From Dudresnaya verticillata (taxonomy: Eukaryota): a DNA stretch of 64,000 nucleotides. This document shows, piece by piece, positions 11,205 to 64,000 of this stretch; the first letter of the stretch is position 1; every line of letters starts with the position of its first letter. Below the pieces are notes generated by a model, which saw only the letters and a list, made by a program, of their open reading frames with translations, had not been told where the DNA came from and did not search any database. The stretch lies in the NCBI GenBank assembly GCA_977862235.1, contig OZ374559.1, forward strand, positions 2,852,001-2,916,000, in the 5' to 3' direction. Position numbers and translations under genes: made by a program.

Positions 11205-12701
11205 CTAACCGGAGCAATTGCAATCGCACTTGAGGTTCTTCTTAATGCCTGGAACTCTCAAACTTGACTTCACAGACTTAGAGGCAGAGACCATGGCGTT
11301 CAGCATATCTGCGTTTGGAGTATCGCCACTCAGCTCCCATGCAAATGACCCACCAAGACCCTTATTGGCAGCATATATCGCCTTGCTGGCGATGGTGGAA
11401 GGAGTGTCATAGCTCCACCATTCACCAGAGCAGAATGCATACATAGTTCCTGCAATGGGCCCTGTCGGCGGACAGCTGTTGATAAGGACCTTGTAGTCAT
11501 CAGTACCCTCTTCCCAAGTTCCGGGAGCTGGACCTGTTGCAGATCCTCCTGGGGCAGACTGCGAAACTCCCTGCCATCCACGGCCGTAGAATGGCATGCC
11601 GAAAATGATTTTGTCGGCCGGCACGCCCTTGGCCAGCAGGTAGTCAATAGCTTGGTCGGCATACATACCTTCGATCGGAATACCGTCATACGATTCGAGA
11701 GGGGCATTCGGGGCTGTTGGACCACTGGGATCCCACGCACCGAAGTAGTCGTACGTCATTACCATCACAAAGTCCATGTATTCAATTGCTCCAGCGTAAT
11801 CTGCTTTTGTGAGTTTTCCGTCCGACCTAGCGTCACCTGCGATCGCAGCAGATACGAGTTGAGTTGGGAACTTTTCGCGCACTGCCTTCATCAGGACTGT
11901 GAGAGCGTCGCGGCCGCTATCGTCGCAAGTGAGTCCGCAATCATTGGGATACTCCCAATCGATGTCGATGCCATCAAAGACTCCCAGCCATCTTTGATCA
12001 TAAATCATATCATAGCACGACTGTGCGAATTGCGCGGCGTTTTTGGAAGCTGTTCCGAAGTTACCTGAGAGAGTCCACCCACCGATCGAGTACAGCACCT
12101 TGATGTGCGGGTACTTTTTCTTGAGCTTCAACAACTGGTTGAAATTACCCTTAAGGGGATCATCCCATGAATCGGCGACACCGTCAACACTTTCGGCTGC
12201 TGAGAAGGCTTTCTCATATTCTGCCCAGGTGTCGTACATTTTGCATTTTCCGGAAGAGTCAACATCTCCAAACGCATACAAGATATGCGTAAGTTTCGCT
12301 GCTGACCCGCTGGTATCAATGTCTTTGACGAAATACCTTCGATCGTAGCTAACCCAGTTCGGGAAATAGGCACCGACAAATGAACCAGCGGGAAGCGGCG
12401 TCGGTGTGGGTGTTCCAGTTCCTGTCGGAGTTGGTGTTGGCGTCGGGGTTGGCGTGGGCGTTCCCGAGCAAGGTCCGAGGTAATCCCAAACTCCCCATTG
12501 TCCTGTAGTTCCAGGCTCCTCACCTTGGGTCCACCACTTCGCCTTGTACTGAGCGGCTTCATGAGAGACCGAGTCTCCTTCTTCATAAATACCTGTGGCC
12601 TCCCAAGCAGGGTAGGTGCATTGGGGAGTCTGCCTGGAGCGAGCAGCAACAATGTTGATCAAGCTCCATAGCAGCAGAGCGGCTGTCGCCGTGAATTGCA
12701 T
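11205..12701 (-). CDS. Secreted GH18 chitinase: signal peptide, CBM5/12 chitin-binding module, Pro/Thr linker, catalytic domain
   Basis: Signal MQFTATAALLLWSLINIVAA; CBM motif YKAKWWTQGEEPG...GVW; (TP)n linker; SIGGW, FDGIDIDWEYP (DxxDxDxE), MTYD. TATA-like CTATATAA about 95 bp upstream. Confidence 0.96.
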   Translation of the reverse strand: MQFTATAALLLWSLINIVAARSRQTPQCTYPAWEATGIYEEGDSVSHEAAQYKAKWWTQGEEPGTTGQWGVWDYLGPCSGTPTPTPTPTPTPTGTGTPTPTPLPAGSFVGAYFPNWVSYDRRYFVKDIDTSGSAAKLTHILYAFGDVDSSGKCKMYDTWAEYEKAFSAAESVDGVADSWDDPLKGNFNQLLKLKKKYPHIKVLYSIGGWTLSGNFGTASKNAAQFAQSCYDMIYDQRWLGVFDGIDIDWEYPNDCGLTCDDSGRDALTVLMKAVREKFPTQLVSAAIAGDARSDGKLTKADYAGAIEYMDFVMVMTYDYFGAWDPSGPTAPNAPLESYDGIPIEGMYADQAIDYLLAKGVPADKIIFGMPFYGRGWQGVSQSAPGGSATGPAPGTWEEGTDDYKVLINSCPPTGPIAGTMYAFCSGEWWSYDTPSTIASKAIYAANKGLGGSFAWELSGDTPNADMLNAMVSASKSVKSSLRVPGIKKNLKCDCNCSG

Positions 12702-15377: not shown

Positions 15378-15971
15378 ATGACTGAACCAACCCCTCCCTC
15401 TTCATCTATCTCAATCTCTCCCGCCATTCCCAGCGATTATGCTGAACTTGTCAATCATCAGCTTGCTTCTGGCATGGTCGGCCGTAGGGCCCTGTGGCCT
15501 CGCTCCAGTCTCGTTCTTCCTAACGAGGTGGGCTTCTTCAAGCCCGAGACTACCCTCTACCTGGAGACCCACCGCAAGGACCGCCGTAATGCCAAAGAGC
15601 TGGAGTATATTCACTCCGCTGGGTGCTGGATCGAGCAGTCTCTGGCTGCTCTCTCGCTCCTCGGGGCGGAATCTGATGTCGACAAGCAGTCCCGGCTTCT
15701 GGGGCTCATCGAAGAAGGTCTTGGTGGCGCGAAAGAAGTTCTCTCTATGCGTACAGCCCATTTCCAAACCGTTCTTTCGAAAGGACAGACTCAAGCCAAT
15801 CAAATCGCTGAGCTTGTCGAGACCCGTGTCGAAGCCAAGCGCCACCAGGTTCCCTCGGAAGCCTACGCAGACGTCTATCAGGAACTGTCTGCGAAATATG
15901 TCATCGAGACAGCCAAGAGTCTGGCTAAGGATGCTACCAGCGGTGGCAAGAAGCCAGACCACAAGGGATAA
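15378..15971 (+). CDS. DIRS ORF1 (gag-like, 197 aa)
   Basis: First ORF after the repeat; helical composition; its stop overlaps the next start as TAATG. Confidence 0.75.
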   Translation: MTEPTPPSSSISISPAIPSDYAELVNHQLASGMVGRRALWPRSSLVLPNEVGFFKPETTLYLETHRKDRRNAKELEYIHSAGCWIEQSLAALSLLGAESDVDKQSRLLGLIEEGLGGAKEVLSMRTAHFQTVLSKGQTQANQIAELVETRVEAKRHQVPSEAYADVYQELSAKYVIETAKSLAKDATSGGKKPDHKG

Positions 15972-18900
15972 TGTCACCCGGACAGGACCCAGTGCAGGCC
16001 TCCTGGCACCAAGCGCGGTGGGCCGGCACGAGACAAAGAGCGCAGAACTGGGAGCAGATCAGCGCGTCCGCCTTTGTCATCCGCATTCTTATGTTTGGAG
16101 TGTGGGACCCTCCTCAACGCCCGTTCACCCTAGGACGGGAGCTTCCCGAGATCCCTCAGAGCCCAGAAGATCTCTCTTTTGGCCGGAAGGAGCTGTCGGA
16201 GGGGTGCACTATCGGCACTTACCAGCAGGTGAGTGCGACCTTTGCACATCAACAACTCAGCAATGGAGCTCTCATTTCAAGCGCATTTGTCACTTGGCAG
16301 AAAGGCAAACCCCGCTTCATCATCAACCTAAAAGAGCAAAGCACCCATTGGGACAAACAATCCGTACGTATGGATACACTGTCCAGCTTTGGGGCCTGCC
16401 TTTGCCCTGGCGATTACCTTTTATCATTCGACTGGTCATCTGGGTATCGTCACTTCGCTCTTCATCGGAAGATGTGGAATTGGTTTCTTTTCAGGTACGA
16501 TGGACAGTATTATCGATGTATCGCGTTGCCATTTGGTTGGACAGCCTCTCCGTTCTGGTTTACAAAAATTCTAAGCCCTTTGACTCGGTTTATGCGGAGC
16601 GAGCTGTGCCTTCGTGTCCTAGTATGGCTCGACGACTACCTAATCGCCCCTGGAGATGGCAGCAGACCGAGCACTCCAGAAGATTGCGGCATCACCTCTG
16701 TTCATTTGGACCAGCTTTTCACGATGCTAGGGTTAGTTCGGCATCCCAGCAAGGGCATTTGGGGTCACGGCGCGACGAGAATCGAACATCTAGGGCTGGT
16801 TATCGACACTGTCGCATTTCGATACTTCGTATCTCCCTCGAAGCTTCAGCAGCTCCAAGAGATGTCCTCAGATTTGCTCCGAACCGCCAGGCAGAGGAGT
16901 CGCTGGGTCCGCGAAACTGTACTTGCCAGTTTTTGTGGCCGTGCTGTCTCGCAGCTCATACCGCTCCCGCTGGCGCGCTTCTTTACTCGGAGCTTGTACG
17001 ATGCTCTGAAGGATGTGGCGCCCAGGCGCGGCCGCTATCCGGAACGCACAGTGAAGCTGAGCCACACCGCGGTTCGGGATCTGCAATCCTGGTCTACGAT
17101 GCTGGCTGGAGATGGACGGTTAATTGGTGGCGGAAAACCTTCATGGTGCCTGCATACCGATGCAGCCGATGTAGGGTACGGTGCTACATTGGGTTCAAAT
17201 ATGCAGGCCGGATCCCCGGGAGACATAGAGGTACAAGGAATTTGGTCTCCCTTTCTTCGGTTGAAGTCCATTACGCTCCGGGAACTTGTTGCTGTCCGAA
17301 TGGCTTTGGAGGATTCGATGATGCAGTCTCAAATTACCGGAGATCATTCCATATTGCTCTTACACGTGGACAATATGGCAGTCTTCCACATCATTTCCAA
17401 CATGGTGTCAGCGAAGGCAGAACTCATGGCAGAACTCCGTCGGCTACACCACCTCCTCGTCGGGATGAAGGTAACCATTCGCGCGGAGTGGCTTCCGTCG
17501 GCCCTCAACAAATACGCGGACAGCCTGAGTCGGACTTGGAACCCGCGAGACCTCGCAGCGACGCCATTATTGCTGCAGTCCGTAGCAACCTCGCTCCAAT
17601 TACAAATCGTGCGGCGTTACTGGCCCCTCGGGGAAGCACCATCCGCACGCCGCAAGGTTATGATGGCCCAGTTCGCCGAGCACTGGGGAGACGGGAAGAG
17701 TCGTTTATGGAACCCTCCTCCGCCGTGGATTCCGTCCACGCTCCTCAAGATCAGAGAGGAAGGAGCGCACGGCATCTTAGTCGTCCCCTACTGGACCGGA
17801 GCGCCTTGGTTCGCACTATTGCAACAGATCTCGCTCAACAGTCGCGTCATCAGTCCCGGCCCGGGCCGTCCTCTATTCACAACAGAACAAGCCAACCCCG
17901 CCTGGGCGTTGTTATTGGCCGAAGTAGGGAAACCGCCGGTCAGGCCCTCCAACGCAGAATCGCGTCTCTCGTCCCTTCAACTGCTGCCGGACGAGCTACA
18001 GTACGTCTAGCAGGGCGCTGCATTGCACCGTCCACTGACCGTACCAAAACAACTCAGTGGAGGAAGTTTGAGGGCTTTTGCAATCGGAATGGGCATTCTT
18101 CCCTCCCAGCAGGGGTTGGTACCGTTCTATCCTATGTCGGTTTCTTATTTGAAGAAAATCGCATTCATGGAAAGTCAGTGGACCACTACCTTTCCGCAAT
18201 CCGGACGAGGCATTTGCGAGAAGGTTTGCCAGACCCTCTGGTAGGCAATCCTCATGCCGACCTTCTTCGTGCTTTTCGTCATCAAGACGACAATCGAGGG
18301 GCACTTGTAGACGTTCGAGCTGCTCTGCCGGCTGCAATTGTCTTCAGGATCAGGCGTCGCGGCCTTCAAGCTCGTCCAGGTTCGCTTACGGAGCATCAGT
18401 GCGCTCTCGTGGAGTTTCAATATTTGATGACATGGCGGGAAAATTCTGTTCGAACTGTACAGGTCCAAGATATCAGCGTGGTTCGCGCTCCAGCTTCAGA
18501 CACTTCACCCACCGTGCTCAACCACATTACTATCACGGCACGACCCCGTTCTCTGAAAGGCAGATTGCTCCGAGGCGTTGGGGCCTGCGCCGTCACCTGC
18601 CGTCACAGTCCCGTTGGTTTTGTCAATCGAAACCCGCTCGCGCTACAGCTTCGCTTCTATGCTGGACGCTCCGCAATTGCCCAAACAGACGACCTCTACT
18701 GGGCCCGTCAGGGCGTCGATCTTCGTCCACAAATCGTTAGTGATTCTCTTGCAGCGTGTCTCACAGATCTGCAAATAATTCCGCCGCCGTTCGCCAGTTA
18801 CACCTCCCACAGCCTCCGAAGCGGCAGTGTTACAGCACAAGTCCTCCTCAACGTTCCTATGCCCGTCATCACAAACCGGGGCGGCTGGCGTAGCAGCAAT

Positions 18901-19011
18901 ATGGTCGTGAACGTCTACTTTGACTCAAGGCTTCGCCTGTCTCCGGAAATGAATCTTTATTTCTGGTCGCTGAAAGACTCTTCTCGTCCTCCGCTCCCGC
19001 CCCCTCAGTAA
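15439..19011 (+). CDS. Overlapping ORF with C-terminal tyrosine recombinase (recognisable from about 17950); true start uncertain
   Basis: N-terminal SAM-like segment (IAPSTDRTKTTQWRKFEGFC...YLSAIRTRH) and catalytic set WR...K...SHSLRSG...GGW...VY. Confidence 0.9.
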   Translation: MLNLSIISLLLAWSAVGPCGLAPVSFFLTRWASSSPRLPSTWRPTARTAVMPKSWSIFTPLGAGSSSLWLLSRSSGRNLMSTSSPGFWGSSKKVLVARKKFSLCVQPISKPFFRKDRLKPIKSLSLSRPVSKPSATRFPRKPTQTSIRNCLRNMSSRQPRVWLRMLPAVARSQTTRDNVTRTGPSAGLLAPSAVGRHETKSAELGADQRVRLCHPHSYVWSVGPSSTPVHPRTGASRDPSEPRRSLFWPEGAVGGVHYRHLPAGECDLCTSTTQQWSSHFKRICHLAERQTPLHHQPKRAKHPLGQTIRTYGYTVQLWGLPLPWRLPFIIRLVIWVSSLRSSSEDVELVSFQVRWTVLSMYRVAIWLDSLSVLVYKNSKPFDSVYAERAVPSCPSMARRLPNRPWRWQQTEHSRRLRHHLCSFGPAFHDARVSSASQQGHLGSRRDENRTSRAGYRHCRISILRISLEASAAPRDVLRFAPNRQAEESLGPRNCTCQFLWPCCLAAHTAPAGALLYSELVRCSEGCGAQARPLSGTHSEAEPHRGSGSAILVYDAGWRWTVNWWRKTFMVPAYRCSRCRVRCYIGFKYAGRIPGRHRGTRNLVSLSSVEVHYAPGTCCCPNGFGGFDDAVSNYRRSFHIALTRGQYGSLPHHFQHGVSEGRTHGRTPSATPPPRRDEGNHSRGVASVGPQQIRGQPESDLEPARPRSDAIIAAVRSNLAPITNRAALLAPRGSTIRTPQGYDGPVRRALGRREESFMEPSSAVDSVHAPQDQRGRSARHLSRPLLDRSALVRTIATDLAQQSRHQSRPGPSSIHNRTSQPRLGVVIGRSRETAGQALQRRIASLVPSTAAGRATVRLAGRCIAPSTDRTKTTQWRKFEGFCNRNGHSSLPAGVGTVLSYVGFLFEENRIHGKSVDHYLSAIRTRHLREGLPDPLVGNPHADLLRAFRHQDDNRGALVDVRAALPAAIVFRIRRRGLQARPGSLTEHQCALVEFQYLMTWRENSVRTVQVQDISVVRAPASDTSPTVLNHITITARPRSLKGRLLRGVGACAVTCRHSPVGFVNRNPLALQLRFYAGRSAIAQTDDLYWARQGVDLRPQIVSDSLAACLTDLQIIPPPFASYTSHSLRSGSVTAQVLLNVPMPVITNRGGWRSSNMVVNVYFDSRLRLSPEMNLYFWSLKDSSRPPLPPPQ
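15971..18010 (+). CDS. DIRS RT, RNase H and N6-adenine-methyltransferase-like domain (679 aa)
   Basis: PRFIINL, YRHF, LPFGW, WLDD (RT); TDAAD...ELVAV...VDN...ADSLSR (RH); WNPPP...ILVVPYW...W (MT). Confidence 0.95.
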   Translation: MSPGQDPVQASWHQARWAGTRQRAQNWEQISASAFVIRILMFGVWDPPQRPFTLGRELPEIPQSPEDLSFGRKELSEGCTIGTYQQVSATFAHQQLSNGALISSAFVTWQKGKPRFIINLKEQSTHWDKQSVRMDTLSSFGACLCPGDYLLSFDWSSGYRHFALHRKMWNWFLFRYDGQYYRCIALPFGWTASPFWFTKILSPLTRFMRSELCLRVLVWLDDYLIAPGDGSRPSTPEDCGITSVHLDQLFTMLGLVRHPSKGIWGHGATRIEHLGLVIDTVAFRYFVSPSKLQQLQEMSSDLLRTARQRSRWVRETVLASFCGRAVSQLIPLPLARFFTRSLYDALKDVAPRRGRYPERTVKLSHTAVRDLQSWSTMLAGDGRLIGGGKPSWCLHTDAADVGYGATLGSNMQAGSPGDIEVQGIWSPFLRLKSITLRELVAVRMALEDSMMQSQITGDHSILLLHVDNMAVFHIISNMVSAKAELMAELRRLHHLLVGMKVTIRAEWLPSALNKYADSLSRTWNPRDLAATPLLLQSVATSLQLQIVRRYWPLGEAPSARRKVMMAQFAEHWGDGKSRLWNPPPPWIPSTLLKIREEGAHGILVVPYWTGAPWFALLQQISLNSRVISPGPGRPLFTTEQANPAWALLLAEVGKPPVRPSNAESRLSSLQLLPDELQYV

Positions 19012-25558: not shown

Positions 25559-26467
25559 ATGGGCCCAGAACTGCCTTCGCGCCCGAAGTTCTCCTGGACA
25601 CTGAAGGACGCTCCATGGACTGATGGTCGTGGTACTCAAGAGGCGTACCTTGACGCCGTCAAGCTATGGAAGTCATTTCACGACAGGCTCCCTGACATGA
25701 ATAGCAACAAAATTCCTGCTTCTCTTCAAGAGATTGTGTTACAGTCACAGCTATATGGTCGCGCGCAGGACCTAGTCAAAAAACTTTCTACGGATGTTAT
25801 TCAAAGTGAAGATGGTGCTCTTTTCATAGCAAAGGCACTACACAAGGATGATCCCCTCGCGGTTGTACATGACGTCTTCCACAAATTTATGTCTGTTTTA
25901 AATACAACGCGTGGTGAGAATGAAGGATTCAAGAACTTCGAGCAGCGCTTTGATGCGCAGTTGAGCCGTTTTAATGCCTCTGCTTCATCAGCCGAGCTAC
26001 CGGAATCTATTAGTTCTTTCTTGCTCTTGGCGAATTCTCGTCTGGACTCGAATCAGCGTGTTTCGATCCTTGCAGCTACTTCTACACGCACGTCTGCAAG
26101 AAATGATGCAGAGCCAATTTTGGACAGTATCAAGTATGAAGAAACAGCTTCCATCTTGCGTACATGCTACAAGCCTCGAGAGGTCCGCAATACTAGTACT
26201 GCTTTATCAGGAAACAGTGGCTTTACCGGCTCTCGTTCGAAAGTTAAACGGGGTTATCGGAAACCTATATGTGAGATGACGCCTGAAGAGATTGCTGATT
26301 TGAAAAAACGTTCTACGTCCCGAGCATGCAATCAAAAAGGTCATTGGGAGGGAGATGCAGAGTGCTCAAAATCAAAGTCAGACGACACACAGCAAAAATC
26401 ACCGAGTGTTTCAGGAAAGTCTCAAACCAAAACTATGAACTTTAATATGGTTTCTGTTCAGCCTTAA
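25559..26467 (+). CDS. gag: Copia gag
   Basis: ATG lies within the PBS; degenerate zinc knuckle SRACNQKGHWEGDAEC. Confidence 0.8.
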   Translation: MGPELPSRPKFSWTLKDAPWTDGRGTQEAYLDAVKLWKSFHDRLPDMNSNKIPASLQEIVLQSQLYGRAQDLVKKLSTDVIQSEDGALFIAKALHKDDPLAVVHDVFHKFMSVLNTTRGENEGFKNFEQRFDAQLSRFNASASSAELPESISSFLLLANSRLDSNQRVSILAATSTRTSARNDAEPILDSIKYEETASILRTCYKPREVRNTSTALSGNSGFTGSRSKVKRGYRKPICEMTPEEIADLKKRSTSRACNQKGHWEGDAECSKSKSDDTQQKSPSVSGKSQTKTMNFNMVSVQP

Positions 26468-28238
26468 AAAGGGCTTCCTCTTAATGTCCCCGGTCCACTA
26501 TTGGACGATGGTGCACCATATGCTGGCATTGGACTGGTGGAGTTAAAATCGCTCGCGCCAGTACTTATTCCTTCCTGGAATGGGAAACTTCAACCCCTGC
26601 CGCCGTCTATATCTGATCGCCCTTATTGGCAATATGGACAGGGATCTCACTCTAGCGCCCCGCGATGCATTCTTAGTGTTTATCTCAGTATGCGTAGTGA
26701 TTCGGGTACTTTGGGGAATGTGAGGCATCTTGTTATTGATGGATGTTCACAGTGGATAATTGGAAAAAACGTTACAAAGCATTGTAACATTATTCACATT
26801 CAAGGGCATTTCCTACAGCTGCCAACATCTGATAAGAATGGGAATCCCGATAAGGTAACAATTGTGAAACACGATATGTTGGATTATCTACCCTCTAGTA
26901 GATTTTTTGTTTCTACACAGCCGTCTCTACATGATGCTCATGTTTCTGCATTGGTATCAAATTCAGTTAATTTGTCATGGAAGCAACTCAAAGCTGTTAT
27001 TGACAAAGTTCACCGCCATGTTTGCGGTCACTCAAATGTTTATGATATCAAGACGCTTCTCCAGCGCAACAAATTATGGACCCCTGAGTGTGTCTCCTAC
27101 CTCTCCAAAGTTTTGAACGATTGTAGCTCATGCCACACAACTGACCTTCCTAAAAAATCACGCAGTGTCTCATTGAACAATTTCTCTCGTGGCTTCAACG
27201 ATTTATTATTCGTTGATCATTTTTTCCCAGAGAATGAGACGACATTTCACGTGATGGATGCGAAGACTCGCTACTCAGCAGGTGATTGTGCACCTTCGAA
27301 AAGCATGCAAGATTCCATCAGTGTATACGAGTCCTGTTGGATATCACCCTTTTGGTCTCCTGTTTCTGTGCAAGCAGATCCTGCTTTTGATAATGCTGAT
27401 TTTAAATCAGATTTATCTCGGTCTGGAACTTTGTTTCGTCGTGCGCCTCCGCGTCGGCCGAGTAAGAAAGCTATTGAATCGAAGCATCGAGTCATCAAAT
27501 CTGTTTTTTACCGTCTTCGTCATGCCAACCCAGAAGCTGATGCCCGCCTGCTTGTACAACAGTCCATCCGAATTTCCAACGACCTATACGGAAACGATGT
27601 TGCATCTTCTCACGAGCTAGCAAAAGGTTATACACGTCCCGTCTGTACTGGTCAAGCTCCGGTTAAAGTTCCGAATGAAATTATCAAGGCTCATGAAGAG
27701 CTTTCCGCAAGAAGAAAACTCACATCCATTCTGCGATCCAAGGCTACCGTTGACAACCCTGTGAAAGTAGGAGATCTTGTTGAGATCTTTTTGAAACAAC
27801 CAAACCAAAAACGTGGTGCTTGGACCAACCCCCGTGCTGTTTTATCAATTGACAGACGCGCAAAAACTGTCACTGTTCCAGTAACTACAGGTCGTACCTT
27901 ATCTGCTGCTGTCGAAGACATCCGACCTGCACTACCTAGCAGTGCCTATTTTTCAACCTTAATTCAAGAGGCTATTGATGCCTGTTCTGAAGAGCTACTG
28001 GACACATTTGACCAGATGGTCGCCGATAATGATGACGACACTGTGGATACATACCACATAAATGGCAATCAAGATGATGGTAACTTTAAAGACGAAGATG
28101 ATGTTTCGGACGGGTACGGTGTTACAGAATCTCCTGTTGTAGGAGATGATGAACGTGCTACAGTACAAGAAGCCACTATTGACAATTATGAAGATACAGG
28201 CACAGTTATTGCCGATGAAGATTTGACATACACGCCTG
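26468..28238 (+). pseudogene. Copia protease plus integrase, truncated
   Basis: LDDGAPY (PR); HRHVCGH...CSSC (HHCC); VDHFF...DPAF...IES (DDE). Separated from gag by an in-frame TAA and runs into the LTR at 28239. Confidence 0.85.
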
Positions 28239-28457
28239 GTTCTGTTTATGTTTCTTTGAGTCTTTGTACATAGTTTGAATAGCTTTCGTAGTACTTTGGT
28301 CTATTTATATTGACCAAAGCTCGTACTTCGGATGACCCAGCCATCGAAGAACACACACACACTCAACAACAATTGACTGCTTCCTTTTTACCACTTGCAA
28401 CACTCTACATCCACTGTTCTAGCCTGTTTTCCTGCCGCTGCACCCGTCAATTTATTA

Positions 28458-40578: not shown

Positions 40579-43500
40579 TCAGGCCAATCGGGGTGGGTAC
40601 CCATTCAGTCTCCTTTGAAAACGCATCCTTCCTCCCTCAAGCAGGGTCTTGGTATGCAATACCACTCTTCTTGTAGCATCAATGCGACATTTGCTTCGGG
40701 TTCCCGTTTCCTGATCGCAAGCGTGGTACAGAGCAACTCTCCTTATTTCAGGACGGAGCTGCAAAAGTTGGACTGTGGAGGAATGAAACGGATTTTCCAC
40801 ATGAACGTATCCTCCTTGCTCCATACGGCAGCGCACGCAAATTGCCCAAGGGACCTCTTCATATCGCTGTAAAATTGCAACGACAGCAAACAGTTGGAGT
40901 TCTCCACCACCATTTGTAACGGGCTGAACTAGTTTTCTCTCCCTCATAACCGGTTCCAGATAGGTCTGTACAGTTGTTCCCTCATAGATGGTATCATAGC
41001 CCGCAGATCTTCCTCCTACAGACCCGTCGTTCCTTATTTTGTACCTTCCCGCACTGCTGTAGAGTCGGAACTGATCTGTCCCGCTCTCTTCCAGTCGTTG
41101 GTTAGAAGGAAACCAGGTGTTTAGCCAATCCTTCATCTCCGAAAACAAACTTGTCATGTCGTCTTCGGAAATTGGGACTTCTTTGGCTATGCTCTCTGCA
41201 TCTGTTATATTTCTGGGTACCCACATAGAGCTTCTATCAAGAGCGAAATTGCAAACTCGCTCATCCTTCTGCATTTGCCATAGGCAAGTTTTTGTAAATT
41301 GCTGCACAATAGTTGAGTCAAGTTCGTCTATTAATTCCTTCTCTTCAGATTCTTTCAGCAGATCAGCAACTTCACCATAGAACAGACGCCTCAGATACCG
41401 CTTTTGTAAGCGATCGCATGAGTTCTCATAATTCCTAACAGCCATAATTCTCCCCTGCCAGTCGTTTGCTAGGCAGTGTTCCACTGCCGAGAGGTGAGCG
41501 TCTTTCTGATTGCTTCTAGATATACATCTTTTCAGAGGTTGATGTGCGCACTCAAAAACGAGCTCCATGAACTCTCTTACGTGCCCAAAAGCAGGTATGC
41601 TATGCTCATACAGTTCCAAAAGTCGGTGAAGGTTCGGCCTATCCAGATGCTGCGTAATATCAGTGAACACTGAACACAACGACTCAACACTTTGCACGTA
41701 CTGCTTTGATAACCACCTCAGTTCTGAAATATATTTCTCATTCTCTTTCACCACAAACGCTTCAGCGTTAGCCCCGTCAAGCTCTTTTTCAGGCCACCAA
41801 TAAGTGAAAGCTACAAGGCGCTGTAGCTTTTGTAGTAGCTGGACCACTTGAGGAAACTTCCCATCTTCACCAGAAACATGAGAACTCATTGCGCGACAGA
41901 CAGGAACGGAAACCAAAAGGACGCAGAAGACAGAGGATAAGCTCATACTGTGAAGCTTTTTCTTGTTGTGGTTGAATACCTGCTTCTGTGTCAGTAATCC
42001 ATTCTCTTGTAGAGAGGCGCATATGCGCACATCAATTTCGGTACGCATTTCGTTCGAAGGTAGAGATGCGTAAACGGCATTTAAAATGTTCTTGGACAAC
42101 CCTGTTAGTAAATGGTCCGGAGCCACAAAGTTAGACCTGTAAGGGTCGAATAGTGCGGACACCACGCGATGGCCTTCCGAGTTGAGAGGAACTGCGCCCA
42201 TTCTTCTTTTGAGTGAACTTTGTAGGTAGAGAAGAGGGCAAGAGCTGTTTCATATTACTCCGTTCGGCTTCATCCCCAGCTTGTTCGCGTCGGTATCTGG
42301 AATTTGACCCTTCCGCAAAGCCTGATGTCTTTCACTTTGTCTCAGAAACGATGAATTGCTGGCATGCACAGCTGTTGTGTATCCGAATCTTGTGCCCTTC
42401 GCGTCCTGAACAGGTAGTCTTCTAAAAGCACATAGCGTGCAAGGAGATGATCCTACGTGCCCAATGACATCAACGGTTGCAGCAGACGCCGGGTAATCTC
42501 CGATGAACCCAATGACGTCGATAAAAATTGTGACGCTTTCACCGTTCGGAGCAAATCCCTGAACACCGGTGGTGCCGGCTACCACCAGATCTTCTGTTAT
42601 GTACCTGAGTATCTCGTTCGAGGAAACTCCGGGAGGTGTAAGTCCAATGATTCTAACAGATGAAGCTTTCCTTCTTACATGTGGCGGCAAAGAAAATGGC
42701 AGCAAATAACATCCCCCAGCTGATGAGGATGGACCCATCATCATTGATGCTTGGAAGTCATCACAGAATAAGAGAACTCTGTACACGAAATATTTAGAAC
42801 CATCCTGTAGACGTCCCCATGACCTTGTCGATATTTTTGGGTCATGGCCTTCTTCCTCACCAGCCTGTCGCTCCATGTTGACTTTCTTGACAGCATGCCA
42901 TTCACACTGAGAGTGAATTTCATCTATTGAGCTATCGGGTTGCTTTTCAGCTTCAAATGGTACCCAGCATAAAACTCTGGTGAGTGTTCCGGGCTGCACT
43001 CTCCAGTATCTGTGAATGAGAACGGCGAACGCCGACTGATTCGCTGTGGTATCTTCCGGACGGAGAAGGGTGCAAATGTCACCCGGAACAACCCGAGTTA
43101 CGGAACTGTTCTGGAGTCTCGCCCCTCTTCCAAATCTATGCATTATATTTCTTTCAGCAGACGTAGAGTGCATGAAACTTATCGCCTTCTTGAAGCTGCT
43201 TGTATCATCGGGTTCCGCAGCAACACACCATGTGCACAAAACGACGGCCCTGAAAATATATCCACATCCTGTACTGAAGATGCGGTAACCAGTTGCGAAG
43301 CTCGGTCTTCCAGTAGTGACTTCAACGGCAATACAATCCCCGTTCATACATATTTCCTCTTCGTTTGTAATTTCCCATTTCGAAGATTGCACAAATATGT
43401 GTTCGCATGAACATGTCACACGTTCACGTTGCCTAACCATTTTGGACCTGTTCAGGAATTGTTCGCTGGAATGACCTTGTCGGTTCGAACACGAAGGATA

Positions 43501-44628
43501 CATGACATTGAACAAAAAAAGGGGCTGCCACATCTATCTTCGCCCATGAACTTGGAAGGATTACTCTCACCTTCTCATTTTCATCATCTTGTGTACACAC
43601 AGAAGAGGGGGTTTGCGTGACTGATGTTGTTGTTACACATACATTACTGCCATCTTATTTGTTCTGTTCAACGTCTTCTTCTTCAATCAAATCCAATACT
43701 GAGTCACGGGATTCGTGTCTAGTCAGCAACCCACTTTGTGATCCTTTTCTTTGAAGCTTTACCAGTTTGCTGGATGGGAAGCATGTGTTCACAAGCGAAA
43801 TAAAGTATCTATGAAGCCTCTTATATGGTGGCATCCTGACCTGCTCCCCGTCACGTAAGGAACCAGGACTTGTAATATCTTCAACCAAATGCTTCAAAAG
43901 CTCATATTGTAGTACTGTATGGCGAACGCTTCCGACAACACAGAGTATTGAAGTCAAATGCAATGGTTCTGCCCACATTTTTTCATCCTCCTCATTACAC
44001 GCTTCATCCTAGAGGTTCCCAAGGTGCACACAGGCATGCCTCGAACGTTCTCATGGACTGCCGGATGCCGACGGAAAAGGGACCCCTGCTCTTCTGTTTC
44101 ATGCTCTGCATCAGACTCGAGCCTGCCAGTTAGCTCTTCAGACCTATGTAATCCGCTCGGAGGCAGGCCATTATCTTGTGCACAAGCAGCTGAAGGAACG
44201 ACTTCATCGTCTCCGTCTGAGAACTCAGCAGAATCGTTTTCTCGCAATTGTTTTAAGACCGTGGCAGCATTACCCATTTCTTCATCCCTGAACTCTTGAA
44301 AGAGGTTATCCTGTTCAGGTTCCGCTGCACATTCTGGCGCTATGTGCTCCTCAGCATTTTTTGTTAGCCTATATCTCGTTCCTAATGGTAGAGTATCGTT
44401 TCTCCCAACGCGTCCTTCCGCGCCGTTCGGTTCAACAGAGGGATTGTGAAGACTTGTATGATGAGGGTCCACTTGGGGACCGTGTGATCCTCCAGGCTCT
44501 CCACCAGAAGAAGAGTACTCAGTTCTGATATTTTTCCTTATTCGTCTTGCCCTGAGATCTTGAAGCCAGGTAGATTGATCAAGTGTGCTGCGACGCCTTC
44601 TTCTCTTCTCACTCAGATCGTAATTCAT
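40579..44628 (-). pseudogene. CACTA/EnSpm (CMC superfamily) DDE transposase, lightly disrupted
   Basis: LLFCDDF...SAGGCY...LPPHVR; FIGDYPA...GH...PCTLC; APDHLL; PNLHRLLE...FGH...MELVFECAHQPLK. In-frame stops at 42250 and 43655, frameshifts near 43515 and 43970. Confidence 0.88.
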
Positions 44629-46679: not shown

Positions 46680-47620
46680 CATCTCCGCTGTGCTCTACGC
46701 GCCGCGTCCGCTCGTCTGGCTCGCTTGCTCCCCTGCCTGTGTCGCTCGCGCGCCTGCTTCGCATCTCCCGCGTCGTCCGCGTCGCTTCTGCTGCTGTGCT
46801 GTACTCTCCGGACCGCTCGTCTGGCTCGCTTGCTCGCCTGCCTGGGTCGCTCGCGCGCCTGCTTCGCGTCGTCCGCGTCGCCCGCGTCGCCCGCATCGCT
46901 TCTGCTGCTGTGCTCTATTCTCCGCGCCCGCTCGTCTGGCTCGCTTGTTCGCCTGCCTGGCTCGCTCGCGCGCCTGCCTCGCATCGCCCGCGTCGCTTCT
47001 GCTACTGGGCTCTACTCGCCGCGTGCACTCGTCTGGCTCGCTTGTTCTTCTGGTTGGCTGGCTCGCCCGCCCGCTTCGCATCGTCGGGTTCGCTCGCTTT
47101 TGTTCATCTACTCGCCGCGTCAGCCCACCTGGCTGGCTTTATCGCCAGCCCGCTTCACGCGATCGCGTTGGCCTGGTCCCTCTCTGCTGTTGACCTACTC
47201 CCCGCTGCCGCACGCCTTGCTGGCTTGCTCGTTCGCCTGCTTCGCGTCGCCGTGGGCGCTTCTGCTACTCTGCGTTCCGCACCTACCTTCCTCGCCCGCC
47301 CGCCTGTCGCTGCCCGAATCGCTTCTGCTACCAGCAACTGTGCTCTACTCGCCGCGCCCGCTCACCTGGCTCGCTTACTCGCCTGGTTGGCTCGTTTGCC
47401 CGCCCGCTTCGCATCGCCCGTGTCGCTTCTACCGCCACACGCTGTGCTCTACTCGACGCGCCCGCTCGTCTGGCTCGCTTGCTCGCCTATCCGTCTCCCT
47501 CGCCGACCCGCTTCGCGTCGTCCTGGTCAGTTTCTGCTGTTGAACTATTCGCCGTGCCCACTCGCCGGGCTGCCTCGCTCGCCCGCCTGCCCGCTTCACT
47601 CGATCGCGTCGCCCCGGTCG
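46680..47620 (+). repeat. GC-rich, A-poor tandem array (about 9 units of 90-145 bp)
   Basis: Core CTCGTCTGGCTCGCTTG at 46711, 46816, 46931, 47028 and 47465, with degenerate copies near 47126, 47216, 47362 and 47560. Confidence 0.9.
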
Positions 47621-56545: not shown

Positions 56546-56673
56546 CTAACAGTTGGCAACCGTTAGCTACTAACAGTTGCCAAAACGGGCAACTGTTAGC
56601 TGCTAACAGTTGCCAAAAGTTGCATCCAAACTGTTAGGTCTAACCGTTGCCAAATGTTTGCGGCTAACAGTTG
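56546..56673. repeat. Array of eight 10-bp CTAACAGTTG-like motifs in mixed orientation
   Basis: Copies at 56546+, 56557-, 56570+, 56590-, 56603+, 56628-, 56640+ and 56664+. Confidence 0.9.
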
Positions 56674-58369
56674 ACAACGCCTAGCAGCTAACGCTAAACT
56701 CCAATTAAATAGCAGACAGTATCAAAAGGACAAACGAATTTGTCATGCGTCCTTGAATGCTTTCAACGTTGTCCAAGGTCCGCGTATTCCATCGAAGTTG
56801 AGAACAATGTTGGCAGAGAGGAACCGAGAGGAAATATGTCGCCATCCCGGACGATATCGGTGCAGCCGCTTCTTCTGCTTGAATTGATGAAGTCTTTCGA
56901 ACGTTTCAACGAAGAACTTTACCAAGTATGGGCGAGACTTGGAAGAAACAGGAAAGCTACTGCGTACTGGTCATCGGACGGTCTTGGATGGGGCGGTGAG
57001 GGGTTGTTGCAGCATGACGGATCAATAGACCTCAGAAAGATGAAAGAGGCTGGACGAGAGGAAGGCAGTGAGGGAGCTTTGGGACCGGCGATGTCTAACG
57101 GGAGACAGGAACAGGAAGATGACAACGTTTACCATATGTTCGATTCTTGGAGCGCAAGTACGTTGAAGATGTATGCATAGAACAAGGAAGGCGTTCAGCA
57201 GAACGATAAGGAAAAGAGGGGAACAAGAAGCTTCTAAACGAGGCCTTCTCCGGACTTGGCAAGGATCTCGTATCAGCCATTAGTCGCTACTATCCTCGAA
57301 AGGAAAAATATCTTGCGAAGAAGGTGTTGCTCAAGTCCAAGTTCTAGCTTGCCGAATTGGTTGACCACCGTGAGATCTTTTAATCAAGAGCTGAAGAATG
57401 CATCCCGTGGTTTGAATAAACATCGCACAGGGAGCAAGGGAAAGACGAATTGTCGCAGGGAGCACCGCGGGAAGAGGGAATCGACTGCAAAGGACAGTGG
57501 GTCAGGGCCAGCAAAACAGTAGTCAACTTATTGCATCGTTATCTTCATAAATGTATTCTGCACTTCTTCTTGTTTTACCACACTTGTTCTTGAAAGCCCC
57601 GAACTCGGGTTCGACCGGATTGGGGGCCGCGAACTGCGAGGGACAGCATGCGGGGCAGTCAGCAGGGGACTGCGTGATCGAGCGGGATGTCCAGCGGTGG
57701 GGCGGGGTGCTTACTGTGTGTACAGTTTGCGGCAATGCGTCGGTGTAGAGCACGCGGGGCAGGCGTGCACAAGGAGGGGCATTGAGCAGCGAGGCGGGGC
57801 ATCGACAGGCCGATTGTTGACTGCCGGGGCGGGTCGCTGACCGACGGGGCGGGTGGTCGATTAGCGGGACTGCTCGAAGGCCAGGGGCCCCGCTCGGGGC
57901 ATGCAAGTGGCGGGAAGAAGAACTACTACAGGAGGGGGGCGCAGAGTCTGGTCTGACTCGCAGGAGAACCCTCCTCCTCATCATCATCATGCTCGAGGTC
58001 GGCGGGGGCAGGAAGTGCGAGGCGGCGGCGGTGCGGCGGTGCGGCGGCGGTGTGTTGGTGGTTGAGAGGGGGAGAGGGAGGGGGTTGAGGAGGGAGAGAG
58101 CGCAGGGAAGGAGAGGGAGGGGTGGTTGTGGGGGGCTGGGAGACGGGAGGAGGGGGACGAAAGAGGGCGATAATCGCGGCATGATGGATGCACTCGCGTG
58201 CGCCCCAGCGCACGGGATTTTGTAGTTTATAGAAGTGTGAGTTCCGGTATGGTGACGTGCGCGTCCGCGCTATAAAGAAGGCGCGGTAGGTGGGGGAAGG
58301 CCATGAATAACGGTGGAGGAGGCGGGAAAACGGCGGTCGGCGTGATCAATTGGCCACATCAATACAAAT

Positions 58370-59930: not shown

Positions 59931-60540
59931 TATAAATGTTTACTCAACTTTAGAGTGTTTAGAGTGTACTCGCCTCGTCCAGGAGCAGGTCGACGGGACA
60001 ACCGAGTAGGGCTCTGAAATGAGTTTAGGTCACTAATACACGCACATGGGCCTTCAAGTCGCCCCGCCCGATCGGGACCACCTAAAACAACCATTAAAAG
60101 TTTACTATCACTAAGCTTCACTACTAGGTCAAAGCGGAAGCGTTAGTTGTTTTTTTGGTAGTGAGCGTAATCCACCAGGGGAGGAAAATCAAAAACAAAG
60201 GGAGCAGCCACTAAAGTAAACCGTCGCACTGGATCTGGTCTTGCTGGTAGTGACATATCCTATTAGTGAGATGGACATGCAGGCAGGATGGATCAATGGA
60301 GAAGTGTGGTTGATGCTTTAGAAGAGAATTTGTTGCTGGAAACATGGAGGTACTTTGTATGTAAGTTTGTAAAATGATGCATTACAACCTCGAGAGTAGG
60401 AAGATTTGAATAAAGGGATAAAGGGATGAAGTGCTTGAAAAGCATAAAACGTTTTATACATTAGTCTGCATTTTTGCTTACTTTATACAATTAGTGGCAC
60501 AAGCAAAGGATGTTCATGTTATGTATTACTGCCAGCAAGA

Positions 60541-61032
60541 CTAAGGACCTCCAGTCTCTTCCAGAATCAGAATGGCAATCTCGATCGCGATTATCAAGAT
60601 CTTCAAGACCAGAATCCAAGGGAACCGCACCGCCTTGGCCAACAGTTCCATCCTTCCCATATTCTTGTCCAAGGATGTGACCTGTACGAGCTGTCGGAAG
60701 GTGCCCTTTAGATCGCTGTTGACGCAAGAAATCGAGCTCTGCACAAGAGATTTCAATTGCACCACGCCCTTGGACATAAATGGTTCGCAGAAAGCATTCG
60801 ACACAAAGGCAGACCGTCCAAACACTTGAATACAAAGCGAATGGAGCTCCTTCGTCATCCTTCCGTTCTTGTAGATTATGTGACACATAAATCCTGAAGA
60901 ATGGATCATGGTGTCGCTTGAGCACGTGTTACTGAGAGCATGAGAAACCTCGGAGATTGGCTTGAGACTGACAGCTGTGCAGGTGCCAATGATGGTGCAC
61001 AGGATAGATGAGATGAGGAAGGATTTCTTCAT
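60541..61032 (-). CDS. Secreted Cys-rich protein (163 aa) with C-terminal hydrophobic helix; paralog A
   Basis: Signal MKKSFLISSILCTIIGTCTA; shares MC...G.MT.EL.SLC..VFGRS......CEPFM..G......SLV.S...C and FPW.LVLKIL.IAIEI with 63451-63981. Confidence 0.85.
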   Translation of the reverse strand: MKKSFLISSILCTIIGTCTAVSLKPISEVSHALSNTCSSDTMIHSSGFMCHIIYKNGRMTKELHSLCIQVFGRSAFVSNAFCEPFMSKGVVQLKSLVQSSISCVNSDLKGTFRQLVQVTSLDKNMGRMELLAKAVRFPWILVLKILIIAIEIAILILEETGGP

Positions 61033-63450
61033 CTTGTTGGTTGCTGTAGATGAACCCCGAATGGCAGATTGTGCGTATACGGATTGCGTATAGCAGTTGG
61101 TTTGTGTAACACAGACTTGACTTCTGGTTAGCACGACTTGGTTATGTGTGGGTGATCTCGGATTCTTTAGCCGATTGCAGAGACGATTTGTTGTGTTGGA
61201 GAGTTGCTTGTTCGCGTCGATTGCTGTTGGTTTCTGATCCTGATTGCAACCCCGGGTTGGGCGTGCTCTGTGGTTTTTATAGAAGAGGATCAAATGTTAC
61301 GCTTGCACATGGTAGCAAGCCCCTGAAACTCAGGATCTAGGTCTAATGCATTCGACTACAAACAAACGCCTTTACCGTTCGCTCGGAAAGACTCACTTGT
61401 GCCTATGATTGTCGGCATTCATAATCGTAGCCACAGGATGAAACAATATTGAAAGTGCTTGCGCCAACAACAGGCTCCCTGCCTCACGTTTCACCTCGGC
61501 ATCGCGCACAACGTTCACGTCTCCTTTTTTTGTTACAGCCGCCTCTCCTTCCGCCTCCCTACATCCTCCCCCTCTTTCTCGTTTGGCCTGCGTCGTGATG
61601 TTTTACTCTTTTACTGTGCCCGCTCGTGTCAGATCTGCCGATATTTGAGATCTTTCTGGGATACTGAGCGCAGGCAACACCGTTTCAGAGAATGTGACTA
61701 TGATGGCACAATGATACATTGGCACGCGTCCAATTGCAGCAGTTTGCTCCATTTTGCATTGTATGAGTTCGAGTGAGCAGCAATACCATGTACCGTGTCT
61801 ACCTTCTTCGGCCGGTACGGGCTCAATACTCTTCATAAACTATACGGCTGTGAAATGGCATCGTATTCAAATCAAACAGCACCGTACTGAGAGTGTGATG
61901 TGCGGAAAGCGAGTGGGGCAGTCTCGAGTCTTTCGAGCACACAAGTCACACCTGATACCGTGGCGGTGTTTGCTGCTGTACAACTTGCACTGTGAGCTTT
62001 CTCATTTCTCATTTCAGCTGCAATACAACTCCGCGAAGGTGCCAACGTTCGTGAAGGGGCATACTGTGTGAATATTGTGATAGTCTGTAGAAAGTCGGAA
62101 GGGGTTTTTATCAGTTCGTTTTTATGCTGCACGAGCTTGCGAACCTCGTTGGAGGCAGCCGTGAGAGTATAACAAAGCGAGTACTTTGACAAAGGTCGGT
62201 TTGATTCACGTCGTCGGATACATTGAAACTGTATGAAGTGCTTTGAAGGTTACGGAAACGTCAATAAGGCTTTGACTGTGCGGTAATGTGTGTCTTGTCT
62301 GTGTGTGCTTTAGGTGCTCATATGTGCCATTCCGCTTTCTACGAGATGGTGGCTGAGCCAAGTGTTCCAAGGCCCCGGTCCACCTGCGGCTGTGCAAGTG
62401 GAGCAAGGTGTGACGGGAATGCAACATTCTGGAGCGAACAGGTGGCCTGGAGACGGGCAACAAGAATATGCAGTCGTCCTTAGCAGCTCAGATGTGCAGA
62501 GATATAATGCAGTGAGATTGTGGTAATGTTATATTATTACTGTTACACCATTTGTTCCCTCTTTCCGGATTTATGTGTGGTCATAGCTTTGAAACGGCAC
62601 AGCGTTCTAACAAGTGCAGGGAGCCTCGAGGTTAGAAAGGCCGCACATATCGCATGATCGCATGATGGCTAATGACTCTACCTGCAGCGTCCAAGTGAAT
62701 TGGCGGCAGAACGCTTGCTGGCGGCGGTGACGGAGAACGTGCGGTAGCAGTTGAAGCTACGAGATTTGTGTAACGTGTCAAGACAAAAGGTTCAGCTGCT
62801 GTGAACTGCAGCTACGAATGCCAAAGGCTATCACCGCATATCACTGCGTGTACATACTTGGACCGTCCTGTTGGAATATCTCGGAGATGTTTCCTAGTCT
62901 TTCACTCTTCCGCCGCACTCGTTGGCCGCTGGTGTTGTGCCTAAACTACCACCGCCAGTTGGCGTCGGGTGGGCGCTCGTTCCCCCTCTCATTTTACTAG
63001 AGCGAGTGGCGCGCAACGCTTCTTCCCCGAGGTACATCACAACTTTTCTGCGGCTGTGTGCGTCAGCTGTTACGTTACGTTGGAACTGCAGCGCTGTTCT
63101 TGTTCTAGACTATAGTCGAGAATAGCCACATGCCATCGTGCTGTGTCACAGTGCGCCTCACAAAGTATGAAGTCAAGGTTTGCGAGGTCGTTGCGCCGAG
63201 ATCGTGGCGATGCTGTATGAAGTTTACTTAAGGCTATATAAGTGCTGGGCGGCTCACCAAAGACTCAAACCACCTAAATCATTGCGGTACTTCTGCACAG
63301 CAGCAAAGCACACTCTATTCACTCACACACACATTCACACAGCATACTTTCCATCTGCACCCGCACCCTTCCAGAACAACTCCTCAACACATCAACACAC
63401 CTTCTGTGCTACATTTCTATCCCGTTTACAAATCAACCCGCAACTCCAAC

Positions 63451-63981
63451 ATGAAGTTCACCACCTCTTGTTTCGCAATTTTCTTGCTCATCGCTGTCTA
63501 CGAGACGTCAGCTAAAGCTGCCTCCATTGTTTCCACACACGACGCCGTCCCTCAAAAAATAGAGCTCCATGGATCTCGCACCACAACTGGCGCATGCTCA
63601 CACGACGACCTTCTTCAGACGGCAGGATGCATGTGCTACGTTGTACAATCAAAGGGGAAGATGACACGAGAACTTTCTTCATTGTGCACTGAAGTATTCG
63701 GGCGGTCCATTTTCTATTCGGAAAAGTACTGCGAGCCGTTCATGACCGGTGGCATGACCCAGTACATGTCATTAGTCAAGAGTGCAAATACCTGCCTCAG
63801 CACCAAACTCGCTGCATCACTCCGTCAACTGTCGCGTGGATCTAAACACGAGTCGACGTCTACGGCCTTGGAACCAGGGAACAAAATGGAGCTGGAAGCG
63901 AGCGTGGTTCGTAAGTTCCCATGGAAGCTAGTACTGAAGATCTTGAAGATTGCGATCGAAATTATACTATTGTTCTTGTAG
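63451..63981 (+). CDS. Secreted Cys-rich protein (176 aa) with C-terminal cationic amphipathic helix; paralog B
   Basis: Signal MKFTTSCFAIFLLIAVYETSA; TATA CTATATAA at 63234; ends RKFPWKLVLKILKIAIEIILLFL. Confidence 0.85.
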   Translation: MKFTTSCFAIFLLIAVYETSAKAASIVSTHDAVPQKIELHGSRTTTGACSHDDLLQTAGCMCYVVQSKGKMTRELSSLCTEVFGRSIFYSEKYCEPFMTGGMTQYMSLVKSANTCLSTKLAASLRQLSRGSKHESTSTALEPGNKMELEASVVRKFPWKLVLKILKIAIEIILLFL

Positions 63982-64000
63982 TGGAGTTGGCAGATGTGTC

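What the first reader, a model, noticed from the sequence alone, without database searches (positions are those of the whole stretch)
60541..63981. Divergent paralog pair resembling secreted antimicrobial or pore-forming peptide precursors
Seen: both have a signal peptide, five aligned cysteines, a variable linker and a strongly conserved terminal segment after MEL.A..VR: KFPWKLVLKILKIAIEIILLFL vs FPWILVLKILIIAIEIAILILEETGGP. In paralog B the charged residues K5, K9, K12 and E16 fall at i, i+4, i+7, i+11 (one helical face). The tail is better conserved than the rest, which is unusual for a mere anchor. Inference: a prepro-domain plus protease-released amphipathic peptide (cathelicidin-like logic, not homology); the Cys spacing is loosely saposin-like. 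I recognise no known family.
Basis: partly seen in the sequence, partly recalled or inferred. Interest (0 to 1): 0.75.

Follow-up and report, generated by a model that had tools for sequence, protein, structure and literature searches.

The report
Orphan cysteine-rich membrane-tailed protein pair
Two neighbouring, oppositely oriented genes of an unidentified eukaryote encode old, diverged copies of a small protein from a rare unnamed family, with a predicted secretion signal, a six-cysteine helical domain and a conserved greasy tail that likely anchors it in a membrane rather than being released as an antimicrobial peptide.

Summary
Gene A (60541-61032, minus strand, 163 aa) and gene B (63451-63981, plus strand, 176 aa) are complete single-exon ORFs, 42% identical (E 2e-40). 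Each has a TATA box and an ATG-free leader. Synonymous sites are saturated, yet the Cys domain (pN 0.34) and especially the tail (pN 0.16) are under purifying selection.

They belong to a very small, undescribed family. Four true relatives turned up among 1.84 billion representatives. The only named one is a transcript of the red alga Eucheuma denticulatum. The family signature is C-x10-C-x-C-x16-C-x14-C-x20..26-C in a confidently modelled helical domain. Gene A has lost the second Cys. No Pfam, PDB-sequence or fold match was found, and nothing supports a saposin relationship.

The R-(K)-F-P-W tail is shared only by A, B and the closest relative; more distant members carry other tails or none. 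Only B's tail is amphipathic. A's is a plain hydrophobic helix.

Best reading (about 0.4): a single-pass membrane anchor displaying the Cys domain. Rivals are a GPI signal (0.2) and a released membrane-active peptide (0.13). Function remains untested, and no expression data could be obtained.

The parts
60541..61032 (-). Gene A, complete single-exon CDS, 163 aa plus stop
   Evidence: ORF list and translation. First in-frame ATG, with A at -3. 42% identical to B.
60967..61032 (-). A residues 1-22, predicted cleaved signal peptide (cut after A-V-S)
   Evidence: Best 15-residue hydropathy window 1.95 in the first 35 residues. Small residues at -3/-1 seen by eye. No SignalP was available.
60685..60924 (-). 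A residues 37-116, Cys domain with five of the six family cysteines (second Cys replaced by Phe)
   Evidence: Alignments A1/A3 and Cys positions.
60544..60651 (-). A residues 128-163: conserved juxtamembrane M-E-L..A..V-R motif, F-P-W hydrophobic helix (137-157), then a six-residue acidic/polar end
   Evidence: Kyte-Doolittle 19-residue mean 2.49. Helical moment 0.13. Tail pN 0.16 against pS 0.77.
61275..61281 (-). TATAAAA box 249 nt upstream of A's ATG, followed by an ATG-free leader
63235..63241 (+). TATATAA box 216 nt upstream of B's ATG, followed by an ATG-free, C/A-rich leader
63451..63981 (+). Gene B, complete single-exon CDS, 176 aa plus stop; ends 19 nt before the window end
63451..63519 (+). 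B residues 1-23, predicted cleaved signal peptide (cut after A-K-A)
   Evidence: Best 15-residue hydropathy window 2.12. -3/-1 rule applied by eye.
63595..63834 (+). B residues 49-128, six-Cys helical domain (C49, C60, C62, C79, C94, C115)
   Evidence: AF2 with the 6-sequence alignment: pLDDT 74-92 for residues 51-120, with helices 51-67, 73-83, 85-88, 92-97 and 105-129. Invariant C49 C62 C79 F83 G84 C94 C115.
63835..63885 (+). B residues 129-145, variable Ser/Thr-rich linker
   Evidence: 15% identity to A; pLDDT 39-47.
63886..63978 (+). B residues 146-176: M-E-L motif, R-K-F-P-W, and a terminal helix carrying K159, K163, K166 and E170
   Evidence: Helix 158-175 with pLDDT about 80-86. Moment 0.41. 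Kyte-Doolittle mean 1.72. The 49-nt stretch here is the only inverted DNA repeat left between the two genes, at 80% identity.
61641..61832 (-). Possible decayed third copy (marginal)
   Evidence: Family HMM positions 38-67, E 0.057 among 1322 six-frame pieces. tblastn with B gives 26.6% over 64 aa across a stop, E 1.6.

Best explanation
Genes A and B are an old inverted duplicate pair encoding small proteins with a predicted cleaved signal peptide, a disulfide-type six-cysteine helical domain (five Cys in A) and a C-terminal hydrophobic helix that likely holds the domain on the outer or luminal face of a membrane as a single-pass anchor.

Shown directly:
- The two complete ORFs and their 42% identity.
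- Saturated synonymous sites combined with strong protein-level constraint.
- A strictly conserved Cys spacing across six proteins.
- A confidently modelled helical core.
- A terminal helix whose R, F-P-W, K163, A168 and E170 are invariant in A, B and the nearest relative.

Inferred:
- Signal-peptide cleavage.
- Three disulfides in B, with one unpaired Cys in A.
- Membrane integration of the tail.
- That the conserved Lys/Glu pair inside the helix (i, i+7) would mediate specific helix-helix association, with itself, with the paralog or with a partner. This would explain why the tail is more constrained than an ordinary anchor.

The ligand or role of the ectodomain is unknown. I would guess cell-surface or wall-facing recognition in a red-alga-like host.
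For: Real genes:
- BLASTP E 2e-40.
- Nucleotide identity at codon positions 1/2/3 is 0.59/0.72/0.36 in the Cys domain and 0.71/0.86/0.52 in the tail. Only 7 of 15 identical tail residues use the same codon, so the conservation reflects protein-level constraint, not gene conversion.
- Nei-Gojobori pN/pS is 0.341/0.798 for the domain and 0.156/0.767 for the tail.
- TATA boxes sit at -249 and -216, each followed by an ATG-free leader.

Family:
- 4 true hits of 5 at E<=0.001 in 1.84 billion representatives.
- Cys spacing 10,1,16,14,20(24,26) in 5 of 6 members.
- One member is a transcript of Eucheuma denticulatum.

Secretory route: hydrophobic N-termini in 6 of 6 members.

Anchor:
- 19-residue Kyte-Doolittle means of 2.49 (A) and 1.72 (B). 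The scale and the roughly 1.6 threshold are recalled.
- Modelled helix 158-175.
- A and P0121 carry short polar ends after the helix, as membrane-spanning proteins do.
- Tail invariants R154 F156 P157 W158 L160 K163 I164 A168 E170.
- The tail is the best-conserved window.
Against: - No TM or GPI predictor was available.
- Basic residues lie on the N-terminal (luminal) side of the helix. B has no residue after the helix and A ends in acidic residues. This runs against the positive-inside rule for a type I anchor, and leaves no stop-transfer flank.
- B's helix holds three Lys and one Glu, which would be costly for a lone membrane-spanning helix.
- More distant members have a cationic strand-like tail (P0122), a 10-residue hydrophobic stub (P0124) or no hydrophobic tail (P0125). 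Anchoring is therefore not a family-wide trait.
- There are no expression or localisation data for A or B.
Confidence: 0.4

Rival explanations
1. The tail is a GPI-attachment signal that would be removed in the ER. The six-Cys domain would then be lipid-anchored at the cell surface.
For: A signal peptide plus a hydrophobic stretch at the very C-terminus with no cytosolic tail (B) is the classic GPI precursor layout. Small residues (A, S) lie 6-9 positions before the hydrophobic run. The missing positive-inside flank does not matter for a GPI signal.
Against: B's hydrophobic run contains 3 Lys and 1 Glu, and A's contains 1 Lys and 1 Glu. Specific residues are invariant and the tail has the lowest pN in the protein. 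That is more constraint than a removed signal usually shows. P0121 lacks an obvious small omega triplet (by eye). No predictor was run.
Confidence: 0.2
2. One reading: the Cys domain is a carrier or pro-domain, and the C-terminal segment would be cut off after the conserved basic residue and act as a membrane-active (antimicrobial or pore-forming) peptide.
For: A basic residue sits directly before the tail in 6 of 6 members (by eye). B's tail is a cationic amphipathic helix, net +2, moment 0.41, reached by 121/5000 shuffles. P0122's tail is cationic with a strong strand-type moment of 0.72. Across distant members the domain keeps its Cys spacing while the tails differ, which resembles cathelicidin logic.
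Against: A and P0121 tails are not amphipathic, with moments 0.13 and 0.11, reached by 3030 and 4102 of 5000 shuffles. A's tail has net charge 0 and is followed by acidic residues. The tails are 80-90% apolar, which is a membrane-spanning composition. Among A, B and P0121 the tail is the most conserved part, not a diversifying one. P0125 has no such tail. There is no evidence of cleavage, induction or activity.
Confidence: 0.13
3. The tail is a C-terminal sorting or retention propeptide (as in plant vacuolar C-terminal determinants), or it folds back on the helical domain of a soluble secreted lipid-binding protein.
For: Distant members have short or non-membrane-length tails (P0124 has 10 hydrophobic residues). 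The fold-search alignments spanned model residues 49-176, so the tail helix may pack on the bundle in the model.
Against: A and B have a full 19-21-residue helix with invariant residues. No coordinates or contact map could be inspected. There is no known motif match.
Confidence: 0.07
4. The ORFs are non-functional relics or chance frames in a transposon-rich region.
For: The region is rich in retroelements. No RNA run was listed. The proteins are absent from the 5.8-billion protein collection.
Against: Two intact ORFs persist after synonymous saturation with pN/pS 0.2-0.43. The Cys spacing is conserved in relatives elsewhere, one of them transcribed. Both have a TATA box and an ATG-free leader.
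Confidence: 0.03

Closest known systems
Cathelicidin precursors
   Same: Signal peptide, a Cys-containing conserved N-terminal domain, and a C-terminal hydrophobic or cationic segment behind a basic residue.
   Different: No cathelin domain: Pfam gives 0 hits at E<=10. The model is all-helical with six Cys, whereas cathelin is cystatin-like with four Cys (recalled). Here the tail is the most conserved part among close members.
Saposin-like proteins (SAPLIP)
   Same: A helical domain of about 80 aa with six Cys, and a possible link to membranes.
   Different: The Cys spacing 10,1,16,14,20 does not fit the saposin pattern as I recall it. No SapB Pfam hit. No saposin among the 50 rows shown by the wide structural search, which leaves the fold question inconclusive.
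GPI-anchored small helical Cys-rich surface proteins (plant LTPG-type lipid-transfer proteins, oomycete elicitin-like proteins; recalled)
   Same: Signal peptide, small disulfide-rich helical domain, variable Ser/Thr linker and a C-terminal hydrophobic segment.
   Different: Six Cys with a different spacing. No LTP or elicitin Pfam hit. The tail carries conserved charged residues and is under strong constraint.
Small single-pass proteins whose membrane helix carries charged residues for assembly (DAP12 / CD3-type modules; recalled)
   Same: A small ectodomain with Cys, and a conserved Lys/Glu inside the membrane helix.
   Different: No cytoplasmic signalling tail at all, no homology, and assembly is untested here.

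Membership tests
Cathelicidin | Cathelin-like (cystatin-fold) pro-domain | tested here: not met
   Pfam gives 0 families at E<=10 for A and B. The model is all-helical.
Cathelicidin | Conserved pro-domain with a hypervariable C-terminal mature peptide | tested here: inconclusive
   Among A, B and P0121 the tail is the most conserved part. Among distant members the tails differ.
Cathelicidin | Proteolytic release of an active peptide | not testable with these tools
   Needs peptidomics and activity assays.
Saposin-like (SAPLIP) | SapB domain signature by sequence | tested here: not met
   No Pfam hit for A or B at E<=10. No family is shared by the 6 members at E<=1.
Saposin-like (SAPLIP) | Characteristic six-Cys spacing (recalled: two close Cys at each end) | tested here: not met
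   Spacing is 10,1,16,14,20. The reference pattern is recalled, not taken from a call.
Saposin-like (SAPLIP) | Saposin fold | tested here: inconclusive
   VIA-wide best Z is 5.9, to generic helical bundles, with no saposin in the 50 rows shown. Foldseek against PDB gives 0 matches at E<=0.001.
GPI-anchored protein | N-terminal signal peptide | tested here: met
   Heuristic only. The best 15-residue hydropathy window is 1.68-2.38 in the first 35 residues of 6 of 6 members. Small -3/-1 residues seen by eye in A and B.
GPI-anchored protein | Small omega-site residues, a polar spacer, and an uncharged hydrophobic C-terminus | tested here: inconclusive
   The layout fits, but the hydrophobic run holds K/E (A) or 3 K plus E (B). 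No NetGPI or big-PI was available.
Single-pass type I membrane protein | Hydrophobic segment of about 19 or more residues after the ectodomain | tested here: met
   Kyte-Doolittle 19-residue means of 2.49 (A) and 1.72 (B). Modelled helix 158-175. The threshold is recalled.
Single-pass type I membrane protein | Positive residues on the cytosolic (C-terminal) flank | tested here: not met
   In A and B the basic residues precede the helix. B ends with the helix and A ends in acidic residues. P0121 does end in two Lys.
nsLTP/prolamin and elicitin helical Cys-rich domains | Family sequence signature (8-Cys motif, or the elicitin domain) | tested here: not met
   No Pfam hit. Six Cys with a different spacing.

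The most novel reading that the evidence does not exclude
A red-alga-type host-defence precursor family built on cathelicidin-like logic. A conserved six-Cys helical carrier domain delivers lineage-variable, cationic, membrane-active C-terminal peptides that are released at the conserved basic residue. B's amphipathic helix and P0122's cationic strand-like tail would be active forms. A would be a membrane-retained or regulatory paralog.
Probability: 0.12. Interest if true: 0.75.

Novelty: new variant of a known kind. Interest (0 to 1): 0.33.

Why it matters
If the reading holds, this defines an undescribed six-cysteine helical domain family. It is restricted, as far as the searches reach, to a handful of eukaryotic sequences, one of them from a carrageenan-producing red seaweed.

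The membrane tail is constrained more strongly than the ectodomain. That is a useful handle for studying how small surface proteins assemble in a poorly studied lineage. If instead the tail is released, it would be a first gene-encoded membrane-active peptide system of this design in algae.

At present it is an orphan family with no functional data, so the value is moderate.

Tried and rejected
- Own genome: none is held.
- Sequencing runs for 60400-64000: none was listed, and no RNA holder was listed.
- The search for homologous proteins with B: 46 candidates, none at E<=0.001, and no self hit.
- Profile A1 in the same collection: only P0124 and P0125 of 2765 candidates.
With A2, 39 pattern matches and none confirmed. 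With P0122, 431 matches and none confirmed.
- Viral contigs with A2: 23 matches, none confirmed.
- ESM Atlas: best score 0.75 for B and no usable hit for P0122.
- Pfam, PDB sequence profile, Foldseek against PDB and BFVD, and VIA-wide: nothing specific.
- Single-sequence AF2 was poor, with pLDDT 55.
- Complex prediction for mature A plus mature B was not available; the queue was full.
- P0123, a 1248-aa repeat protein with 8 short matched stretches, was dropped from the alignments as spurious.
- The upstream regions of A and B do not align, so no shared promoter motif beyond the TATA box was found.
- The bacterial promoter/terminator scan is irrelevant for a eukaryote.
- Rfam and tRNA scans of the window found nothing.
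- Earlier-findings look-ups returned nothing.
- Literature listings (only titles and abstract openings seen) showed no paper on such a family. I read no paper.
Full report
**What is there**

The last 3.5 kb of the window holds two complete, intron-less ORFs in head-to-head orientation.
- Gene A runs 60541-61032 on the minus strand: 163 aa from the first ATG.
- Gene B runs 63451-63981 on the plus strand: 176 aa.

BLASTP gives 68/161 identities (42%), E 2e-40. tblastn and a family HMM over all six frames of the window find only these two copies. There is also one marginal fragment at 61641-61832 on the minus strand (HMM E 0.057; tblastn E 1.6 across a stop). It may be a decayed third copy.

**Are they genes?**

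Several lines say yes.
- In the Cys domain, nucleotide identity at codon positions 1/2/3 is 0.59/0.72/0.36. In the F-P-W tail it is 0.71/0.86/0.52.
- Only 7 of 15 identical tail residues share the codon.
- Nei-Gojobori pS is about 0.73-0.80 everywhere, which is saturated. pN is 0.341 in the domain and 0.156 in the tail.

This is therefore an old duplication kept by protein-level selection, not by recent gene conversion. The only DNA-level inverted repeat left between the two genes is the 49-nt tail-coding stretch, at 80% identity. The upstream regions no longer align.

Each gene has a TATA box followed by a leader free of ATG on the sense strand. A's is TATAAAA at -249 and B's is TATATAA at -216. 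Both start codons have A at -3.

No RNA data could be obtained.

**Anatomy**

Both proteins start with a hydrophobic N-terminus with small residues at -3/-1. This looks like a signal peptide, judged by eye and hydropathy; no predictor was available. After it come:
- a variable stretch;
- a Cys domain;
- a poorly conserved linker (15% identity);
- a conserved M-E-L..A..V-R motif;
- R-(K)-F-P-W plus a 19-21-residue hydrophobic helix.

B ends with that helix. A adds six acidic or polar residues.

**Relatives**

The word-indexed search of 5.8 billion proteins found nothing, not even the window's own proteins. A full phmmer pass over 1.84 billion representatives gave 5 hits at E<=0.001.
- P0121: E 4.6e-13
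- P0122: E 2.5e-6
- P0124: E 4.1e-5
- P0125: E 9.1e-5
- P0123: a 1248-aa repeat protein, which I dropped as spurious

P0124 is an EukProt transcript-derived protein of Eucheuma denticulatum, a florideophyte red alga. The other three come from unnamed assemblies. Their clusters have 1-2 members each.

All six proteins have a hydrophobic N-terminus. Five of six share the exact spacing C-x10-C-x-C-x16-C-x14-C-x20(24,26)-C. A has Phe at the second position. The invariant columns are C49, C62, C79, F83, G84, C94, C115 and I164.

Further scans added no members.

The window itself is eukaryote-like and transposon-rich. From recall, intron-poor genes in a repeat-rich genome fit florideophyte red algae. 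The organism was not identified.

**Fold**

With the six-sequence alignment, AF2 models residues 51-120 of B at pLDDT 74-92. The model has helices at 51-67, 73-83, 85-88, 92-97 and 105-129, with a small hairpin between them. The tail helix 158-175 has pLDDT about 80-86. The linker is disordered. The single-sequence run was poor, with pLDDT 55.
- Foldseek against PDB: 0 matches at E<=0.001, best 1.9.
- BFVD: none at E<=0.001.
- Foldseek-independent search of 48,161 chains: best Z 5.9, and 0 chains at Z>=8. All top rows are generic helical bundles, well inside the tool's stated background for helical models.
- PDB sequence profile: best E 0.91.
- Pfam: nothing for A or B at E<=10, and nothing shared by the six members at E<=1.

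The domain therefore has no assignable family. The saposin suggestion finds no support.

**The tail**

Among A, B and P0121, the invariant tail residues are R154, F156, P157, W158, L160, K163, I164, A168 and E170. The last 28 aligned A/B columns are the best-conserved window: 20/28 against 67/157 overall, reached by 166 of 200,000 random column sets.

The amphipathic face, however, is B-specific.

| Protein | Helical moment | Shuffles reaching it (of 5000) |
|---|---|---|
| B | 0.41 | 121 |
| A | 0.13 | 3030 |
| P0121 | 0.11 | 4102 |

A's tail has only one Lys and one Glu among 21 residues. Its Kyte-Doolittle mean is 2.49 and B's is 1.72.

More distant members differ.
- P0122 has a cationic tail with strand-type periodicity, moment 0.72.
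- P0124 has a 10-residue hydrophobic stub.
- P0125 has no hydrophobic tail.

**Interpretation**

I commit to a membrane-anchored ectodomain protein, with the tail as an integral helix (0.4). The conserved Lys/Glu pair would serve specific helix-helix association, which would explain the extra constraint.

Three facts count against this.
- The basic residues lie on the luminal side of the helix.
- B has nothing after the helix, and A ends in acidic residues.
- B's three Lys are costly in a bilayer.

A GPI signal (0.2) fits the layout but not the charged, constrained tail. The released-peptide idea (0.13) draws support from the basic residue before every tail, from B's and P0122's cationic amphipathic tails, and from the contrast between a conserved domain and variable tails at family level. 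It is weakened by A's and P0121's plain hydrophobic tails and by the strong conservation among close members. The complex predictor was not available.

**Novelty and literature**

Four literature searches were made. I saw only the listings, and none showed a paper on such a family. I read no paper. This is an undescribed small family of a familiar general kind: a small secreted or anchored Cys-rich protein.

Noticed in passing
window 11205-12701 (-): A 498-aa ORF with a signal-like N-terminus, a CBM5/12 module, a Pro/Thr linker and a GH18 chitinase domain (Pfam E 2e-73). Its best database hits are actinobacterial chitinases (Glycomyces and others) at 53-59% identity, with no closer eukaryotic hit listed. 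It is a candidate bacterial-origin gene sitting among retroelements in a eukaryote-like window.
   Followed up: partly
window 3986-7575 (-), 15439-19011 (+), 25559-28273 (+): Retroelement content. There is an RT plus RNase H ORF (Pfam RVT_1, RT_RNaseH) with a downstream integrase-like ORF (weak Integrase_p58_C). A second RT ORF (weak RVT_1) is overlapped by a 1190-aa ORF in another frame. A gag/integrase-like ORF pair has no Pfam hit and is judged by eye only.
   Followed up: partly
window 61641-61832 (-): A marginal match to the family profile around the C-x-C motif, interrupted by a stop. It is possibly a decayed third paralog lying between A and B (HMM E 0.057; tblastn E 1.6).
   Followed up: partly
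window 56548-56692: A cluster of 31-34-nt units that are both tandem and palindromic (GGCAAC..GTTGCC type), with 3 direct copies and several inverted pairs. Function unknown.
   Followed up: no
window 46687-47121: A GC-rich (0.61), strongly C/T-skewed tandem array with a period of about 97-115 nt and 2-4 copies, just upstream of a 508-aa ORF with no Pfam match.
   Followed up: no
window 40579-43533 (-): Two adjacent long ORFs (540 and 427 aa) on the same strand with no Pfam hit at E<=0.001. They could be one interrupted gene or a mobile-element protein.
   Followed up: no
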